From an uncultured virus (IMG/VR IMGVR_UViG_3300028179_000157) (taxonomy: Duplodnaviria > Heunggongvirae > Uroviricota > Caudoviricetes): a stretch of 20,000 nucleotides of DNA. The stretch is from IMG/VR virus record IMGVR_UViG_3300028179_000157; one strand, given 5' to 3'. The notes under the pieces were generated by a model, which was not told the origin of the DNA, did not search any database, and worked only from the letters and a program-made list of their open reading frames with translations. Made by a program: the position numbers and the translations under genes. Below are positions 2,605-15,091 of this stretch, one piece after another. Numbering within the stretch: position 1 is the stretch's first letter; the number at the start of each line of letters is the position of its first letter.

Positions 2605-2912
2605 ACGTGTTCGGCGACTCGATCATCAAGATCTCCCTGCTGGGCGGTCGACATCACGAGTTCGTTGTACCGTCCTTCAGCGATGCCGGCTTCGTGCCGG
2701 TGCTGGCCCGTAGCAGCAGTGCTCTGGCCAGCCTCGCCCAGGAACTGACGGAGCTTACCTCCACCGTCGATGCCAATGCAGCGGCACGTAACAACTTCAG
2801 GTCGAACTTCATGGGCACCCGTGATGACGACACCATCGACGATCGACCCACCAATAGCGGCCGTAGCCGCTGGACCGAGAATGACCGCAATGACGCTGAT
2901 TCCGTTCTATAG
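2592..2912 (+). CDS. C-terminal continuation of the gp69/PicA-like protein in the -1 frame (KVRVNVFGDSIIKISLLGG...PSFSD...)
   Basis: It overlaps the end of the 1333 ORF in the -1 frame, has the same codon bias and no clear RBS, and fills the gap up to the next gene. Joined length is about 526 aa. Confidence 0.6.
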   Translation, partial: KVRVNVFGDSIIKISLLGGRHHEFVVPSFSDAGFVPVLARSSSALASLAQELTELTSTVDANAAARNNFRSNFMGTRDDDTIDDRPTNSGRSRWTENDRNDADSVL

Positions 2913-4308
2913 TTCCTTGCTCGATTCGCTCAACGTTGTACAGAGCGATGATGGCAAGCTTTCCCTGCTCGTCGGCAACGAAGAGCGCCCGCTGCTGATC
3001 AGCGGCAAACGTGCGGCCATGCCGATCGCTGAAGTGCTGCGTGGCGGCATCGATGATGGCGTCGTGGTATTCCATCCGCTGTCGGAGAAGATCTTCCGCG
3101 GCGAATCGGAAGTCCTGAAGAAGCTGAAGGAGCTGGTGACCCTGCGACTGGGCACCGCTCTGACGCTGACGATGGCGCACATCCTGGACATCGCCGCAGA
3201 ACCCGAGCAGCACAAGAAGCTGCCGCCGCAGGCCATCAAGCTGCTGCGCAACCTGCCCGACGCTGACGACAAGTTGGTCAAGACCTTCGAGAAGATCACC
3301 GAGACCTTCGCCGAGCACAAGGAGCACCGGCCGTTCAAGCTGTTCCTGCGCAAGAGCGGCGTGATCGGTGATACCACCTACAGCCGTGTGGCCAAGGTGG
3401 ACTTCCCGTACATCGACCAGATCGATCTGGAAAAGACCGACCTGTTCGGCTTGAAGGTCCGCAAGCGTGATCCGAAGGCGCTGTTCAACCTGATGGATAT
3501 CGTGGTGCCTGGCTGCGCGGTGCCCAACACCTACAGCTACGGCAGCAACGCGCTGATCGCTCCCAACTTCGATGCCCTGATGCGTGCCTACCACAAGGTG
3601 GCCAAGCAGATCAACGAAGTCAGCGAGCTGTTCCGCGACAAGAACGAGGAAGTCAATGAGCTGTACATCGACCTGAGCTGGTTCGATGGCATGGACGACC
3701 TCGACAACCTTGCCGTGCAGGTGCCCTCGATGTCGGGCAACGAAGGCAACGTGGCCATCGAAGAACGTGCACCGGGTGATGACAAGGAACGCGAGAAGCC
3801 GGTCGAACCGGAACGCGTGCCGGAAACCCGCCGCAACGAAGAACGCGACGATCGTGATGATCGACGTGATCCGCTGCGTGACAACCGTGGTGACCGCGAG
3901 TTCTCCGAATCGCGCGATCGCTACCGTCGTGAACGTGATGAAAGCCGTGGCCGTGATCGTGACCGTCGTGATGACGAACGCGAACCGGCCCGTAGCAGTC
4001 TCACCGACCGCTACACCGGCAAGGCGGATAGCGCCCCTTTCCGCGACTCGTCGTCGTCCAGGGATCGCGACGATTCGAGGTACGGAAGCCGGCGCGATGG
4101 CTCCTCCGAGCGCGCTGGATATCATCAGAGGCCTCGGAATGGCTGGCGTTCTGATGATCGCGACGATCGTGGTCGTGATCGTGACTACCACTACCGCGGT
4201 GAGCGCGATCGCGATGATCGTGATGACCGTCGTAGCAGTCGGCGTGACCGTGATGACCGTTACGACCGCGATGACCGCGGCCGTGGACGTCGTGACCGTC
4301 GCTACTGA
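2890..4308 (+). CDS. phiKZ gp70-like conserved protein with an Arg/Asp-rich low-complexity C-terminal tail
   Basis: Long ORF with good codon usage. The likely start is ATG 2881 or 2890, since the upstream part of the track ORF shadows the 2595-2912 ORF. It has a globular N-terminal ~290 aa followed by an RD-rich tail and a terminator. Synteny fits. Confidence 0.65.
   Translation: MTLIPFYSSLLDSLNVVQSDDGKLSLLVGNEERPLLISGKRAAMPIAEVLRGGIDDGVVVFHPLSEKIFRGESEVLKKLKELVTLRLGTALTLTMAHILDIAAEPEQHKKLPPQAIKLLRNLPDADDKLVKTFEKITETFAEHKEHRPFKLFLRKSGVIGDTTYSRVAKVDFPYIDQIDLEKTDLFGLKVRKRDPKALFNLMDIVVPGCAVPNTYSYGSNALIAPNFDALMRAYHKVAKQINEVSELFRDKNEEVNELYIDLSWFDGMDDLDNLAVQVPSMSGNEGNVAIEERAPGDDKEREKPVEPERVPETRRNEERDDRDDRRDPLRDNRGDREFSESRDRYRRERDESRGRDRDRRDDEREPARSSLTDRYTGKADSAPFRDSSSSRDRDDSRYGSRRDGSSERAGYHQRPRNGWRSDDRDDRGRDRDYHYRGERDRDDRDDRRSSRRDRDDRYDRDDRGRGRRDRRY
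3830..4305 (+). repeat. Low-complexity coding repeat (CGT/CGC-GAT/GAC; RDDRDDR-type)
   Basis: Recurrent gatcgtgatgaccgt/cgcgacgatcgt units encode RDDRDDRR, RDRDRRDD and RDRDDRYDRDDRGRG. Confidence 0.85.
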
Positions 4309-4317
4309 GTAACGGCA

Positions 4318-4352
4318 TAGGCGGGGGGATAAACCCCCCCGCTTATTTTTTT
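4318..4352 (+). terminator. Rho-independent terminator between convergent genes
   Basis: Stem GCGGGGGG / CCCCCCGC followed by TTATTTTTTT, just after the stop at 4308. Confidence 0.85.
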
Positions 4353-12444: not shown

Positions 12445-12906
12445 CTATCTCTTTTTCTTTGTCCCGATTACGATATCGGTTTCGAAGGGTAACGGATCAA
12501 GGTAGTGATACATCAAAGGACGGATCATGTCCTCGTAGTTCAAGTGCCCATTACCGCAACCCAAGGGGACCATGGCCATGTCACTGATCCCCATCTGTTC
12601 ATGCTTGTCTCTCAAGCGGATCAAGTTAGCCTCGATCCAGTCGTAGCGTGACGGGCTACCCCACCATTGCTTGGTGGGAAAGAGCAAGACTTGTCGACCT
12701 TCCCCGAAGGGATACAGATACATCTTGTCAATGGACAAGGCCTTAGCCTTGAACAACTTCATGTAGAACTCGTAGAGACCTGGGATAGACTCACGCAGAC
12801 TCAGCGCAACTCCAGCCCCCATAGCACCTGTGGTATTGATGGTACACACGAGCGTTTGACGCGGGGACGCCGAAACGTCCCCTACCAGTTCCTGTACGAT
12901 CGGCAT
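12445..12906 (-). CDS. Stand-alone macrodomain, DarG/TARG1-like ADP-ribosyl glycohydrolase
   Basis: GD at the N-terminus, TINTTGAMGAGVA (cf. NxVNxxGVMGKGIA), LFPTKQWW..S (cf. FPTKxHWR, catalytic Lys) and AMVPLGCGNGHL (cf. AIPPLGCGNGGL). Confidence 0.88.
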   Translation of the reverse strand: MPIVQELVGDVSASPRQTLVCTINTTGAMGAGVALSLRESIPGLYEFYMKLFKAKALSIDKMYLYPFGEGRQVLLFPTKQWWGSPSRYDWIEANLIRLRDKHEQMGISDMAMVPLGCGNGHLNYEDMIRPLMYHYLDPLPFETDIVIGTKKKR

Positions 12907-13436
12907 TATCGACCACTCTTCCCGTCGGTGGCTTCACGTGCTGCAGCTTCGGCAGCAGCCTGCAGCTTAGCTTGTCGCTCCAACCAATCCGCGTTGCTCT
13001 TGAACATGATCTCCGTTTCCCGCCGACTGAGTAAGACGAACTCGCTCCACGACACCCCATACCGGTCCTTGATCCCGTTGATCATGTACCGATACATCTT
13101 GTGCTCAAGCGGGCCGTAAGACCCGTATTGCTCTTTGGGGTGCATGGCAACAGCAGCCATGGGGCGAAGATCTACATCCCCCGTCTCTTCAGTGTAGCGA
13201 GAGTCGTGGTAGAAGATCCCGTAGTAGTCGTCGTACTCCTCCATGCACATCAACTGCACTGACATGGAGTCAACTTCCGAACTGACCGTAGCCAGCAGGT
13301 TGTTGTGCGGACCTAGATCGTTGACCTTATCCAACCCGAAACGATCAAAGACTACATGACCGTTCGGGTCTTCTTGTTCAAGGTCTACATCACAGAGGCG
13401 GAAATCGCCTTCGCTGTGCGCTGGCCGAGGAGCGTG
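12906..13436 (-). CDS. phiKZ gp76-like ORF; probably translated as a -1 frameshift extension of the upstream 568-aa gene
   Basis: The frame is open from the slippery site (13442-13436) to TAA 12908-12906. The first start codon is TTG 13334. It contains RPMAAVAMHP.E and YGVSWSEFVLLSRRE. Confidence 0.7.
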   Translation of the reverse strand, partial: HAPRPAHSEGDFRLCDVDLEQEDPNGHVVFDRFGLDKVNDLGPHNNLLATVSSEVDSMSVQLMCMEEYDDYYGIFYHDSRYTEETGDVDLRPMAAVAMHPKEQYGSYGPLEHKMYRYMINGIKDRYGVSWSEFVLLSRRETEIMFKSNADWLERQAKLQAAAEAAAREATDGKSGR

Positions 13437-15091
13437 AAAAAAAGTCGTGTCACGTCGAGCGGCAGCAGGCGCGGATGCTTGGAGCCTTCCACGGTCTGCG
13501 GGGCGGAACAGACACGGCAGTTGTAGCGCGGGATCGCCACCATTGCCACGGTCACCGAGTCGATGAACTTCTGCACGCCTTCGGTGAAGCGCTCCACCAC
13601 GTCCTGGCGGCTGGAGATTTCGCCGAGCAGTTCGACGAACGATTCACGCACGTCATCCTGGTCATCTTCTTCCGGGTTGAAGGTGAGCACACCTGCAACT
13701 TCTTCTTCCTTGTTCTTGAAGATGATGCGCTTGACCCAGTGGCTGTACTGACGAGCGGTGGCCATGCGGGACTGCGCCATGATGTACTGGTCGCGTTCCT
13801 GCCCTTCCAGGGCGGTGCCGAAGGCCGCGTCCACGCGCTCTTCGATGGAGTTGATCCATTCGAAGGAGGACTTCTCGTACAGCTCCACCGTGGGGACGGC
13901 GAACTCGACGTAGATGTCATCGCTGATGGCGCACAGCGCGGTTTCGGCGTAGGAGTGGCTGTTGACGTACTCGGTCAGCTCTGCGTCGTTGCTCTTCTGC
14001 GTACGACGGGCCATCAGCTTGCGCTGGCTCTGGCTCAGTGCACGACGGTCCACGAAGAGCAGGCGCGAGAGGTTCAGCACTTCTTCTTCGATGTGCTGGC
14101 ACTGGCCGGTGTGGTTGGTGCACGGACGGGCCAGCGGGTAGCCGTTGGGGTTGTTGATCAGACCCAGCTGCAGCATGAGCAGCGGGATATCGGTGATCAG
14201 CATCTTCTGCTTGATCGATGCCGGGGAGATGTCCTTCAGCGTGCTGTCGTACATCTTGCTGATGGCGAAGTTCGTCACCGTCAGCTGATGGTAGACGTTG
14301 TTGGCCGAGAAGGCCAAGCCGCCGGAGACACGACCCAGGGAGATCTTGCTGTTGCCCAGCTGCTGTTCCAGTTCCAGCATCTCGCCTTCACCCGGCGCCT
14401 GCAGCGACACCCAGAAGCCGGAGTGCCACATCGGTGCCTGTGCCAGCGAACCCACGCCCAGACGCGCCTTCAGGCGGCTCTTGGCTTCTTCGCCGGAGAC
14501 ACGGCCGTTGGTGGTGGAGTTGCCGCCGGTGGCGATCGGACGGCCGATGGCCAGCTCTTCGCCGTTGTGGTCAACAGTCTGCTGCCAGTCCGAGCCTTCG
14601 CGACTCAGGGCACGGCTGCCGTACTGACCGGTGGGCATCAGGCGCGAACCACGAGCAGCACCTTCCAGCCAGCGGATGATTTCCGGCGTCGGGGTGAGGT
14701 TGAGGTTGCCCATGCTTTCACCGACCGGAGCGAACTCCTCGGCGGTCTGGTTCAGGGACCACAGGTGGAAGCCCTTCTCCATGTCCTGCGCTTCGGCTTC
14801 GGTGGCCAGCGGACGGGTGACCGGACGGGTGAGGGTCACGGTCTTGCTCGGCGGCACGGCTTCCGAGCGCTTGGGCTGAACGCGACGCGCGGCGTCGGCG
14901 GCGAGCACACGTTCCTGCTTGCCGATCGGGGTCTCGACATTGGTCGCCGGGTCTTCGACGGAAGGCGGGTCAGCCGGGGTACGATCATGGTTCACGAACG
15001 TGCGCGGGTCGTCAACCGGGATCGCTGCCGCCTCGACGGGCGTTTCCACGGGTGGCTGGTCGTCGATGTTCTCGTTGGGATCCTGCGTCAC
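13385..15091 (-). CDS. phiKZ gp77-like conserved protein with two Cys pairs (C-x5-C and CxxC); candidate tail/baseplate assembly chaperone
   Basis: 568 aa, AGGAG RBS before GTG 15091. Acidic/Pro-rich N-terminus, PMWHSGFWVSL, CTNHTGQC, CRVC and a C-terminal LDVTRLFFTL. Confidence 0.75.
   Translation of the reverse strand: MTQDPNENIDDQPPVETPVEAAAIPVDDPRTFVNHDRTPADPPSVEDPATNVETPIGKQERVLAADAARRVQPKRSEAVPPSKTVTLTRPVTRPLATEAEAQDMEKGFHLWSLNQTAEEFAPVGESMGNLNLTPTPEIIRWLEGAARGSRLMPTGQYGSRALSREGSDWQQTVDHNGEELAIGRPIATGGNSTTNGRVSGEEAKSRLKARLGVGSLAQAPMWHSGFWVSLQAPGEGEMLELEQQLGNSKISLGRVSGGLAFSANNVYHQLTVTNFAISKMYDSTLKDISPASIKQKMLITDIPLLMLQLGLINNPNGYPLARPCTNHTGQCQHIEEEVLNLSRLLFVDRRALSQSQRKLMARRTQKSNDAELTEYVNSHSYAETALCAISDDIYVEFAVPTVELYEKSSFEWINSIEERVDAAFGTALEGQERDQYIMAQSRMATARQYSHWVKRIIFKNKEEEVAGVLTFNPEEDDQDDVRESFVELLGEISSRQDVVERFTEGVQKFIDSVTVAMVAIPRYNCRVCSAPQTVEGSKHPRLLPLDVTRLFFTLLGQRTAKAISASVM
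13436..13442 (-). other. Putative -1 ribosomal frameshift slippery heptamer T_TTT_TTC
   Basis: Codons 550-552 read CTT TTT TTC (A7 at 13437-13443 on the + strand). X_XXY_YYZ phasing is correct and the -1 frame is continuous with the 12906-13334 ORF. Confidence 0.7.

What the first reader, a model, noticed from the sequence alone, without database searches (positions are those of the whole stretch)
12906..15091. Probable programmed -1 ribosomal frameshift fusing the gp77-like and gp76-like genes: a G/GT-type chaperone pair in a nucleus-forming jumbo phage
Seen: 16 codons before its stop, the 568-aa gene reads CTT TTT TTC (heptamer T_TTT_TTC, 13442-13436). The -1 frame from there (FF-HAPRPAHSEGDFRLCDVDLEQEDPNGHVVFDRFGLDKVND...) has no stop and joins the 142-aa ORF, whose first start codon is only a TTG. 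Predicted products are 568 aa and 728 aa. A stem-loop (CACAG.AGGCG/CGCCT.CTGTG, 13418-13391) starts about 17 nt downstream, further than a typical stimulator. Established: X_XXY_YYZ -1 frameshifts make the gpG/gpGT tail assembly chaperones of lambda and many long-tailed phages. Inference: the CxxC followed by 'FF' at the C-terminus, and the downstream YGVSWSEFVLLSRRE motif, recall T4 gp26/gp51-like and gpT-like chaperones. These two hypothetical core genes may therefore be the unrecognised tail/baseplate assembly chaperone system of phiKZ-like phages. I do not know of a description of this in this phage group, but cannot verify novelty.
Basis: partly seen in the sequence, partly recalled or inferred. 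Interest (0 to 1): 0.9.

Follow-up and report, generated by a model that had tools for sequence, protein, structure and literature searches.

The report
Conserved frameshift in jumbo-phage hub chaperone
A core gene of phiKZ-like giant phages, a distant relative of the phage T4 baseplate-hub assembly chaperones, ends at a run of seven T's where the reading frame very probably slips back one base, so this one locus would make a 568-residue and a 728-residue protein that genome records list as two unrelated genes.

Summary
On the minus strand the 568-aa ORF (15091..13385) reads CTT TTT TTC at 13444..13436. The -1 frame is open from there to 12906, and its first start codon is a TTG 36 codons further on.

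The window alone does not make the case: a T7 run is not rare enough there. The case comes from relatives. In 78 of 79 non-identical related loci (GC 27-63%) the -1 frame stays open for 152-194 codons from the same conserved Phe-Phe. The first Phe codon is TTT in 78 of 78. T_TTT_TTN is present in 63, against 9.7 expected. Conserved residues of the -1 product lie before any start codon in 48 of 78. None of the 150 best family representatives is a fused form.

No conserved downstream RNA structure or upstream SD-like element was found.

The large protein has no solved-structure match. Predicted viral structures, sub-threshold Pfam hits, language-model features and a colinear 4-Cys plus C-terminal FFxL pattern all point to T4 gp26/gp51 (PF12322). 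The extension domain matches nothing known.

Ribosomal slippage is favoured over transcriptional slippage but is not proven. I found no paper or record that describes the frameshift.

The parts
13385..15091 (-). Zero-frame gene, 568 aa plus TAG stop. It is the homolog of phiKZ gp77, 201phi2-1 gp136 and PhiPA3 gp074 (phrog_4585). Residues 1-70 are predicted disordered; residues ~75-568 form a confident fold.
   Evidence: AF2 model: pLDDT 87.2, pTM 0.84.
13436..13444 (-). Slip site CTT TTT TTC (L550 F551 F552). The T7 run is 13443..13437 and the in-phase heptamer T_TTT_TTC is 13442..13436.
   Evidence: The same aligned Phe-Phe carries a T5-T9 run in 79 of 79 relatives.
13385..13442 (-). Dual-coding overlap. 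The zero frame encodes the end of the C-terminal helix (FFTLLGQRTAKAISASVM*). The -1 frame encodes FFHAPRPAHSEGDFRLCDV...
   Evidence: In the 60-nt windows covering 13471-13382, identity to Xoo-sp14 is 100% and to L013 98%, against 86% over the matched region.
12906..13442 (-). The -1 frame reading: 178 codons plus TAA (P0001). Joined to residues 1-552 it gives the predicted 728-aa trans-frame product. It corresponds to phrog_12109, 201phi2-1 gp135, PhiPA3 gp073 and PHIKZ076.4.
   Evidence: AF2 model: pLDDT 81.6, helical, with a long C-terminal helix at 140-176.
13335..13384 (-). Stretch between the zero-frame stop and the first possible -1-frame start. It has no start codon yet encodes the conserved ...DPNGHVVFDRFG motif (F35 is Phe in 73 of 78 relatives).
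13332..13334 (-). TTG, the first ATG/GTG/TTG in the -1 frame (residue 37 of P0001). It is the start of the 142-aa ORF that a gene caller would report.
13391..13418 (-). Hairpin CACAG..AGGCG/CGCCU.CUGUG, 17 nt after the heptamer. It is present but not shown to be functional.
   Evidence: z -0.74. Across 78 loci the downstream 60 nt fold no better than control regions.

Best explanation
The two ORFs form one recoded gene. Most ribosomes read the 568-aa protein and stop 16 codons after F552. A minority slip back one base on U_UUU_UUC while tRNA-Phe occupies the site. They then read HAPRP... in the -1 frame for 176 more codons and make a 728-aa protein that shares its first 552 residues with the short form.

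The shared body is a much enlarged, distant relative of the T4 gp26/gp51 baseplate-hub assembly chaperones. Its C-terminal helix runs through the Phe-Phe. In the long form this helix is cut at that point and replaced by a flexible linker and a ~160-residue helical domain of unknown partner.

By analogy with lambda G/GT, a fixed low ratio of long to short form would couple a common chaperone body to a second binding module during tail or baseplate-hub assembly.

Shown here: the sequence anatomy, its family-wide conservation, the biased codon choice, and coding-type conservation of the -1 frame ahead of any start codon. Inferred: that the shift is ribosomal, how efficient it is, the chaperone function, and the role of the extension.
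For: Anatomy in the window.

Close relatives:
- Xoo-sp14 (86% identical) has the same site and the same open -1 frame.
- tblastn with the -1 product found 19 phage records. In 18 of the 19 rows the match starts at query residue 1-13, upstream of the TTG at residue 37.
- phrog_12109 also aligns from residue 22.

Survey of relatives. IMG/VR loci were picked by a motif about 330 codons upstream of the site and pooled with 12 named phages.
- Of 111 loci then held, 102 had a family ORF and 87 reached the C-terminal region.
- 86 had a residue in the aligned FF column, and 79 of those were non-identical.
- The -1 frame is open for at least 140 codons in 78 of 79; the +1 frame in 1 of 79.
- Among the 78: -1 frame 152-194 codons (median 167), zero frame 10-39 (median 16), +1 frame median 13.5.
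- T-run lengths: T5 8, T6 13, T7 39, T8 17, T9 2.

Codon choice at the site:
- The first Phe is TTT in 78 of 78. Elsewhere in the same genes TTT makes up 37% of Phe codons. In the GC>=0.5 subset that figure is 16%, yet the site is TTT in 39 of 39.
- The preceding codon ends in T in 69 of 78, against a 27% background.
- T_TTT_TTN is observed in 63 loci against 9.7 expected; 0 of 200,000 simulations reached 63 (maximum 25).
- None of 28 other FF dipeptides in these genes is slippery.
- From the table, all 78 keep at least one in-phase T_TTY.

Coding conservation of the -1 frame:
- The first ATG/GTG/TTG lies after the conserved F35-G36 motif in 48 of 78 loci; the first ATG lies after it in 65 of 78.
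- F35 is kept in 73 of 78, Y70 in 72 of 78 and E104 in 75 of 78.

No fused forms: there are 1287 family representatives, and by my reading of the table none of the best 150 runs more than about 20 residues past its match.

Function of the shared body:
- Foldseek against BFVD gives ~250-aa 'baseplate hub assembly protein, T4-like', 'hub subunit' and 'hub assembly chaperone' models at E 3e-5 to 0.1, TM by target 0.43-0.56.
- PF12322 is the only family that recurs in a Pfam scan of 84 members: 3 of 84, best E 0.014.
- T4 gp26 and gp51 are both PF12322.
- ESM Atlas rank 2 is a PF12322-bearing cluster, score 0.90, 195 of 256 features.
- The motifs are colinear: C331~C84, P400~P119, CxxC~CxxC, FFxL~FFxL.
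- The DT01 record annotates its homolog as gp26-like.
- A T4 review, read as passages, lists gp26 and gp51 as hub assembly chaperones (PMC3004832).
Against: No protein or ribosome-level evidence was available. The trans-frame product has not been seen.

No conserved stimulator was found. The 60 nt downstream fold with mean z -0.50 against -0.55 for control regions (Mann-Whitney p 0.87). SD-like motifs upstream occur in 9 of 78 loci against 5 of 78 controls.

13 of 79 loci lack a canonical X_XXY_YYZ heptamer, and 8 have only T5.

A long T run could equally drive RNA polymerase slippage. RNA-library contigs of three studies of a phiKZ-like phage show the unedited T7, but contigs drop rare variants, and the one raw-read run held no phage reads. 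The two mechanisms are therefore not separated.

Sequence-profile support for the gp26 link is weak:
- hhalign A1 against the gp26 family gives Prob 2.5%; against gp26 alone, 26%.
- No family member reaches the Pfam cut-off.
- NCBIfam gave nothing recurring.

The locus sits beside RNA-polymerase-subunit and helicase genes, not in a recognisable tail module.

In 30 of 78 loci a start codon precedes the F35 motif, so independent initiation of a shorter product cannot be excluded there. Xoo-sp14 has an AGGAG 13 nt before its annotated ATG.
Confidence: 0.72

Rival explanations
1. Transcriptional slippage. The phage (or host) RNA polymerase adds one U on the T run in a fraction of transcripts, and normal translation of those mRNAs gives the same 728-aa fusion.
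For: The runs are long (T7-T9 in 58 of 79 loci). No ribosomal stimulator is conserved. These phages use their own unusual multisubunit RNA polymerases; one subunit gene lies 3 kb away in the window. The RTH11 record differs from LucasX by one T in this run, so run length is unstable at least in sequencing.
Against: 21 of 79 loci have only T5-T6, which is short for polymerase slippage by what is known of bacterial enzymes (recalled). All 78 keep an in-phase T_TTY, and 63 keep the full in-phase heptamer. 28 of 78 use TTC for the second Phe, which shortens the run. RNA-library contigs of 3 studies carry the unedited run, which is weak evidence because contigs drop minor variants.
Confidence: 0.2
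2. No recoding. These are two ordinary neighbouring genes, the downstream one starts on its own (TTG 13334 or ATG about 13265), and the T run merely encodes a conserved Phe-Phe.
For: Records annotate them as two CDSs in 13 of the 14 named-phage records read. A start codon precedes the F35 motif in 30 of 78 loci. Xoo-sp14 has an SD-like AGGAG before its annotated ATG.
Against: Several observations go unexplained by this reading:
- TTT is used in 78 of 78 loci against a 16-37% background.
- The preceding codon ends in T in 69 of 78.
- None of 28 other FF dipeptides is slippery.
- The downstream ORF is in the -1 frame in 78 of 79 and never separated from the site by a stop.
- Conserved residues lie before any start codon in 48 of 78. 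In phiKZ the first start codon is 87 codons after the site.
Confidence: 0.05
3. The recoding is real, but the protein is not a baseplate or tail chaperone. It serves another conserved process of nucleus-forming phages, and the gp26/gp51 likeness is a shared zinc-ribbon-plus-helix scaffold only.
For: The neighbours are RNA polymerase, helicase and head-protein genes, not tail genes. hhalign probability is low. No solved structure matches. The protein is more than twice the size of gp26.
Against: Three different methods converge on the same small family out of thousands. The invariant residues are colinear. No other PF12322 match was found in the 234-kb record that holds the window. That is a weak test, because the control genomes did not ring either.
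Confidence: 0.25
4. Artefact. A homopolymer sequencing error has split one continuous gene.
For: One record (RTH11) does look like a one-base homopolymer error.
Against: The same frame relation holds in 78 of 79 independent loci from isolates and metagenomes. None of the 150 best representatives is a continuous long form. RNA-library contigs from 3 studies agree with the phiKZ-type DNA.
Confidence: 0.01

Closest known systems
Lambda gpG/gpGT, P2 gpE/gpE+E' and the conserved -1 frameshift of tail assembly chaperone genes in long-tailed phages (Xu, Hendrix & Duda 2004; Levin et al. 1993; both recalled, not read here)
   Same: A slippery heptamer near the end of the upstream ORF and an overlapping -1 ORF without a usable start. 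The short and long products share their N-terminal part. The frameshift is conserved while the sequences diverge. No strong RNA stimulator is evident. The likely role is in tail assembly, and the proteins appear absent from virions: the 201phi2-1 homologs carry no mass-spectrometry note, unlike their neighbour.
   Different: The protein family and fold are different: no Pfam tail-chaperone family matches either part. The body is about four times larger. The locus is not between tube and tape-measure genes. The slip site lies on an almost invariant Phe-Phe inside a structural helix rather than in a linker.
Phage T4 gp26 (208 aa) and gp51 (249 aa), baseplate hub assembly chaperones, Pfam PF12322 T4_baseplate (gp51 also carries PF28602 Gp51_C)
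   Same: Predicted-structure matches. The key residues are colinear: two Cys pairs, an invariant Pro, and FFxL at or near the C-terminus. T4 keeps a short form that ends two or three residues after FF, and a long paralog that continues 46 residues past the equivalent VFKLL. This locus makes a short and a long form from one gene.
   Different: No member reaches the Pfam cut-off and the profile-profile probability is low. The body is about 500 aa against about 200. T4 uses two paralogous genes and an internal start (26'), not a frameshift, and T4 gene 26 encodes FF as TTC TTT. The extension here shows no likeness to Gp51_C.
E. coli dnaX tau/gamma (-1 frameshift at A_AAA_AAG; recalled; mentioned in a passage of PMC7412058)
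   Same: A homopolymer-type heptamer, and two products from one gene in a fixed ratio.
   Different: In dnaX the shift truncates the protein and is driven by an upstream SD-like element and a downstream hairpin. Here the shift extends the protein and neither element is conserved.

Membership tests
-1 programmed ribosomal frameshift cassette | In-phase slippery heptamer X_XXY_YYZ | tested here: met
   T_TTT_TTC at 13442..13436. T_TTT_TTN is present in 63 of 78 relatives against 9.7 expected.
-1 programmed ribosomal frameshift cassette | An overlapping -1 ORF open from the site, kept in relatives, with coding-type conservation ahead of any start codon | tested here: met
   The -1 frame is open in 78 of 79 loci. 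The conserved F35 motif precedes the first start codon in 48 of 78.
-1 programmed ribosomal frameshift cassette | A stimulatory element (downstream hairpin or pseudoknot, or upstream SD-like sequence) | tested here: not met
   Window fold z -0.74. Across 78 loci, z -0.50 against -0.55 for controls, p 0.87; SD-like motifs in 9 against 5. From recall, this element is not obligatory in phage G/GT-type sites.
-1 programmed ribosomal frameshift cassette | The trans-frame protein is observed, and the shift is shown to occur on the ribosome | not testable with these tools
   Only RNA-library contigs were available. They show the unedited run.
Lambda G/GT-type tail assembly chaperone | Gene pair located between the tail tube and tape-measure genes | tested here: not met
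   The neighbours are gp78- and gp79-like genes, an RNA polymerase beta-like subunit, a macro-domain ORF and, in relatives, a helicase.
Lambda G/GT-type tail assembly chaperone | Sequence or fold membership in the gpG, gpT or gpE families | tested here: inconclusive
   No such Pfam family at E<=1 in 84 body sequences or 65 extension sequences. The only hint is a Phage_P2_GpE cluster in the ESM Atlas at score 0.84, a level that is often chance.
Lambda G/GT-type tail assembly chaperone | Short and long products share an N-terminus through a conserved -1 shift | tested here: met
   (inferred from sequence, not from protein).
T4 gp26/gp51 (PF12322 T4_baseplate) | Match to the family profile above its curated cut-off | tested here: not met
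   0 of 84 members exceed 24.5 bits. 3 of 84 match below it (E 0.014, 0.028, 0.27). hhalign Prob 2.5-26%.
T4 gp26/gp51 (PF12322 T4_baseplate) | Shared fold | tested here: inconclusive
   Foldseek against predicted viral models gives several ~250-aa hub assembly proteins at E 3e-5 to 1e-3, TM by target about 0.5. No solved gp26 or gp51 structure turned up to compare with.
T4 gp26/gp51 (PF12322 T4_baseplate) | Two Cys pairs and a C-terminal FFxL in the same order | tested here: met
   A1 has C324 C331 C525 C528 F551 F552 L554. The gp26 family has C82 C84 C187 C190 F204 F205. The greedy hhalign pairs C331 with C84, P400 with P119, CxxC with CxxC and FF with FF.
T4 gp26/gp51 (PF12322 T4_baseplate) | Required for baseplate hub assembly | not testable with these tools
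   Needs genetics and electron microscopy.
Chimalliviridae (chimallin-encoding jumbo phages) | The genome encodes a chimallin (phiKZ gp54) homolog | tested here: met
   The 234,278-bp virus record that shares 100% of the window's sampled words has a 684-aa ORF matching phiKZ gp54 at E 3.6e-23.

The most novel reading that the evidence does not exclude
Every nucleus-forming jumbo phage makes its baseplate-hub assembly chaperone in two forms from one gene, by slippage on an invariant Phe-Phe codon pair. This would be the single-gene counterpart of T4's gp26/gp51 paralog pair. The slip rate would set the stoichiometry of a long form whose extra helical domain recruits a second hub or tape-measure component. 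Weak adjacent-gene matches in a small Leptospira myovirus suggest the arrangement may predate jumbo phages.
Probability: 0.4. Interest if true: 0.8.

Novelty: new variant of a known kind. Interest (0 to 1): 0.7.

Why it matters
If true, it adds a conserved recoding event to a core gene of a heavily studied phage family (phiKZ, PhiPA3, 201phi2-1, Goslar). All 14 named-phage records I read annotate this locus without a frameshift.

It explains an apparently non-coding 218-nt gap in phiKZ. It gives a function to two 'hypothetical' core genes. It extends the 'frameshifted assembly chaperone' principle from the G/GT family to an unrelated chaperone family.

It also offers a handle on a long-unclear point of T4 biology, why hub assembly needs two related chaperones. 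The trans-frame protein is directly testable by mass spectrometry in existing model systems.

Tried and rejected
- **Solved-structure searches.** The body gave 0 Foldseek PDB hits at E<=1e-3 and a best VIA Z of 4.2. The extension's best VIA Z was 5.8, on generic coiled coils, and a PDB sequence-profile search gave nothing below E 0.2.
- **Extension against T4 gp51.** Prob 0.19% against gp51 alone and 0.17% against a 27-sequence gp51 alignment. The idea that the extension equals Gp51_C was dropped and kept only as an analogy. The ESM Atlas rows for Gp51_C (0.83) and P2 GpE (0.84) are below the level at which they mean anything.
- **Pfam scan of 65 extension sequences.** No family is matched by more than 2 members.
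- **NCBIfam scan of 78 sequences.** Nothing recurs.
- **A1 against gp51.** Only a 12-column CPxC match, out of register.
- **The search for related loci.** The single protein found only 2 close loci. A degenerate DNA motif was used instead.
- **Word-based homolog search.** Only 6 hits.
- **RNA evidence for or against polymerase slippage.** The one raw-read run held no phage reads. Contigs of 3 RNA libraries show no indel at the run, but they cannot show minor variants.
- **PF12322 search of the 234-kb record.** No match, but the control genomes did not ring either, so it says little.
- **Complex prediction (body plus extension).** It never ran because the queue was full at every try, so nothing can be said on whether the extension docks on the body.
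- **Literature.** Seven full-text searches listed no paper on this frameshift. The 'gp77', 'gp76' and 'gp136' passages I read in four papers concern other phages' numbering. bioRxiv supplements are closed, so gene-level essentiality tables for phiKZ and PCH45 were not seen.


Full report
**What is in the window.**

On the minus strand a 568-aa ORF runs from a GTG at 15091 to a TAG at 13387..13385. Near its end the sequence reads CGA CTT TTT TTC ACG. L550, F551 and F552 therefore sit on a run of seven T's (13443..13437), and the in-phase heptamer is T_TTT_TTC (13442..13436). Sixteen sense codons follow.

Reading from 13442 in the -1 frame gives 178 codons without a stop, ending at the TAA at 12908..12906 (P0001). 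The first ATG/GTG/TTG in that frame is the TTG at 13334, residue 37 of P0001. The products would be 568 aa and 552+176 = 728 aa.

Within the window the T7 run is not statistically remarkable: 2 matches against 0.58 expected, and 26 of 200 shuffles have at least 2.

**What phage this is.**

The region is 86% identical to Xanthomonas phage Xoo-sp14. A 234,278-bp virus record with terminal repeats shares all sampled words with the window. It encodes a homolog of the phiKZ nuclear shell protein (E 3.6e-23), so this is a chimallin-encoding jumbo phage.

The 568-aa protein is the homolog of phiKZ gp77, 201phi2-1 gp136 and PhiPA3 gp074. The downstream ORF corresponds to 201phi2-1 gp135, PhiPA3 gp073 and PHIKZ076.4, not to 'gp76'.

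**Is the arrangement conserved?**

In Xoo-sp14 the slip region is identical and the -1 frame is open. The 60-nt windows covering 13471-13382 are 100% (Xoo-sp14) and 98% (L013) identical, against 86% overall.

tblastn with the -1 product found 19 phage records. In 18 of 19 rows the match begins at query residue 1-13, upstream of the TTG. PHROG 12109 aligns from residue 22.

For breadth I scanned IMG/VR with a degenerate motif from the N-terminal half of the family, about 330 codons from the site (96 stretches, 80 fetched with flanks), and added 12 named phages.
- Of 111 loci then held, 102 had a family ORF and 87 reached the C-terminal region.
- 86 had a residue in the aligned Phe-Phe column, and 79 of those were non-identical.
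- The loci dropped were truncated or exact duplicates. The window itself counts once, through its identical copy L014.
- From the aligned Phe-Phe the -1 frame is open for at least 140 codons in 78 of 79; the +1 frame is open that far in 1 of 79.
- Among the 78, the -1 frame runs 152-194 codons (median 167), the zero frame stops after 10-39 codons (median 16), and the +1 frame has a median of 13.5.
- The single exception, RTH11, has one T fewer than its relative LucasX and is annotated as a 627-aa CDS. It looks like a homopolymer error.
- Independently, an exhaustive HMMER search found 1287 family representatives. By my reading of the table, none of the best 150 extends more than about 20 residues past its match, so no continuous long form appears among them.

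**Is the site selected, or is it just Phe-Phe?**

T-run lengths are T5 8, T6 13, T7 39, T8 17 and T9 2. The codon-choice figures come:
- The first Phe codon is TTT in 78 of 78 loci, although TTT is only 37% of Phe codons elsewhere in these genes. In the 39 loci with GC>=0.5 the background is 16%, yet all 39 have TTT at the site.
- The preceding codon ends in T in 69 of 78, against a 27% background.
- The full T_TTT_TTN is seen in 63 loci against 9.7 expected. None of 200,000 simulations exceeded 25.
- None of the 28 other FF dipeptides in the same genes is slippery.

The loci are related, so these are not independent trials. But they span 27-63% GC, and the family's best database representatives are only 25-45% identical to the window protein. 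From the table, all 78 keep at least one in-phase T_TTY.

**Is the -1 frame translated from the site?**

The -1 peptides align from their first residue (FFYP.RP, then HV...FG, then aYd..yGI). The first possible start codon lies after the conserved F35-G36 motif in 48 of 78 loci (first ATG: 65 of 78). It lies after the Y70 motif in 7 of 78. F35, Y70 and E104 are kept in 73, 72 and 75 of 78 loci.

In phiKZ the first start codon is 87 codons after the site. The 218 nt between PHIKZ077 and PHIKZ076.4 are open in the -1 frame. Independent initiation cannot explain this.

**Mechanism.**

Over 78 loci the 60 nt downstream of the site fold no better than control regions (z -0.50 against -0.55, p 0.87), and SD-like motifs upstream are not enriched (9 against 5). 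So the run itself appears to be the signal. From recall, this is also the case for lambda G/GT.

Ribosomal slippage is favoured because the in-phase requirement is met everywhere, 21 of 79 runs are only T5-T6, and 28 of 78 loci use TTC as the second Phe codon. Polymerase slippage is not excluded. RNA-library contigs of three studies of a phiKZ-type phage carry the unedited run, but contigs hide minor variants, and the one raw-read run had no phage reads.

**What the proteins are.**

With a 150-sequence alignment the body folds confidently (pLDDT 87.2, pTM 0.84). The Phe-Phe lies inside the C-terminal helix 547-567. No solved structure resembles it.

Against predicted viral structures the hits beyond the family itself are ~250-aa proteins named baseplate hub assembly protein (T4-like), hub subunit or hub assembly chaperone (E 3e-5 to 0.1). 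Further lines point the same way:
- PF12322 T4_baseplate is the only Pfam family that recurs among 84 members (3 of 84, all below cut-off).
- T4 gp26 and gp51 both belong to PF12322.
- ESM Atlas features place a PF12322-bearing cluster at rank 2 (score 0.90).
- The gp26 family has two Cys pairs and ends with FFxL. The jumbo-phage family has C324, C331, C525, C528, F551, F552 and L554 nearly invariant. A greedy profile alignment pairs them in order, although with only 2.5% probability.
- One GenBank record already labels its homolog gp26-like.
- A T4 review lists gp26 and gp51 as hub assembly chaperones (passages read; PMC3004832).

I therefore read the body as a distant, enlarged relative of gp26/gp51. 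I do not file it as a Pfam member.

The 178-residue -1 product folds as a helical domain with a long terminal helix (pLDDT 81.6). It matches only its own family. It shows no likeness to gp51's C-terminal domain.

**Comparison with the known.**

The logic is that of G/GT and E/E+E': a short and a long chaperone share a body, made by a conserved -1 shift. The family, the size and the genomic position differ.

T4 offers a suggestive parallel. gp26 ends just after FFELL, with FF encoded by non-slippery TTC TTT. Its paralog gp51 continues for 46 residues past the equivalent VFKLL. Two genes in T4, one recoded gene here. This is an analogy, not a demonstrated homology of the extensions.

**Novelty.**

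Seven full-text searches found no description. The 14 named-phage records I read annotate two CDSs (13 records) or one over-long CDS (RTH11), and none has a joined CDS.

Eight earlier notes of this scan, on other genomes, reach the same reading. I saw them after my own analysis, and they are not independent evidence.

**Verdict.**

A conserved -1 recoding event is very likely (about 0.9 for recoding by either mechanism, and about 0.7 that it is ribosomal). The hub-chaperone function is plausible (about 0.65). It is a new variant of a known kind.

Noticed in passing
L003 (Xanthomonas phage RTH11, OQ790161) 2815-2830: The T run is one base shorter than in its relative LucasX. The upstream CDS therefore runs on in a third frame (annotated as 627 aa) and the downstream ORF sits in the +1 frame. 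This is probably a homopolymer sequencing error in the record.
   Followed up: partly
L114/L115 (phiKZ NC_004629) 71442-73504: The ORF downstream of PHIKZ077 is PHIKZ076.4 (80 aa), not gp76. The 218 nt annotated as intergenic between them are open in the -1 frame and encode conserved family motifs.
   Followed up: yes
window 12445-12906 (-): A 153-aa macro-domain ORF (Pfam Macro, E 1.3e-4; phrog_335 'phosphatase') starts on the stop codon of the extension ORF (TAATG overlap). Xoo-sp14 has no such gene there; it has an A-run and a GC-rich hairpin instead.
   Followed up: no
window 4346-4352 (+): The only other T7 run in the window lies just after the ORF 2770..4308. It may belong to a terminator.
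   Followed up: no
BFVD entries A0A343LED6 / A0A343LED7 (Leptospira phage LE4): Two entries with consecutive accessions, from a small myovirus, give weak matches: E 0.073 to the body model and E 3.7 to the extension model. The two-part arrangement might exist outside jumbo phages.
   Followed up: no
L113 (Pseudomonas phage pPa_SNUABM_DT01, MW735835) 951-2555: This record already annotates its gp77 homolog as 'putative baseplate hub assembly protein (GP26_BPT4)'. The downstream ORF is a separate hypothetical protein, and no frameshift is annotated.
   Followed up: yes
L112 2008-2024 (phiKZ-type phage PA7 copy): Contigs from two RNA libraries end here, after the downstream ORF, and a third carries an extra A at 2016. 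This may be a transcript end or a second slippery homopolymer.
   Followed up: no
window 15088-15091: The GTG start of the 568-aa gene overlaps the stop of the upstream gp78-like ORF by 4 nt (GTGA), which suggests translational coupling.
   Followed up: no
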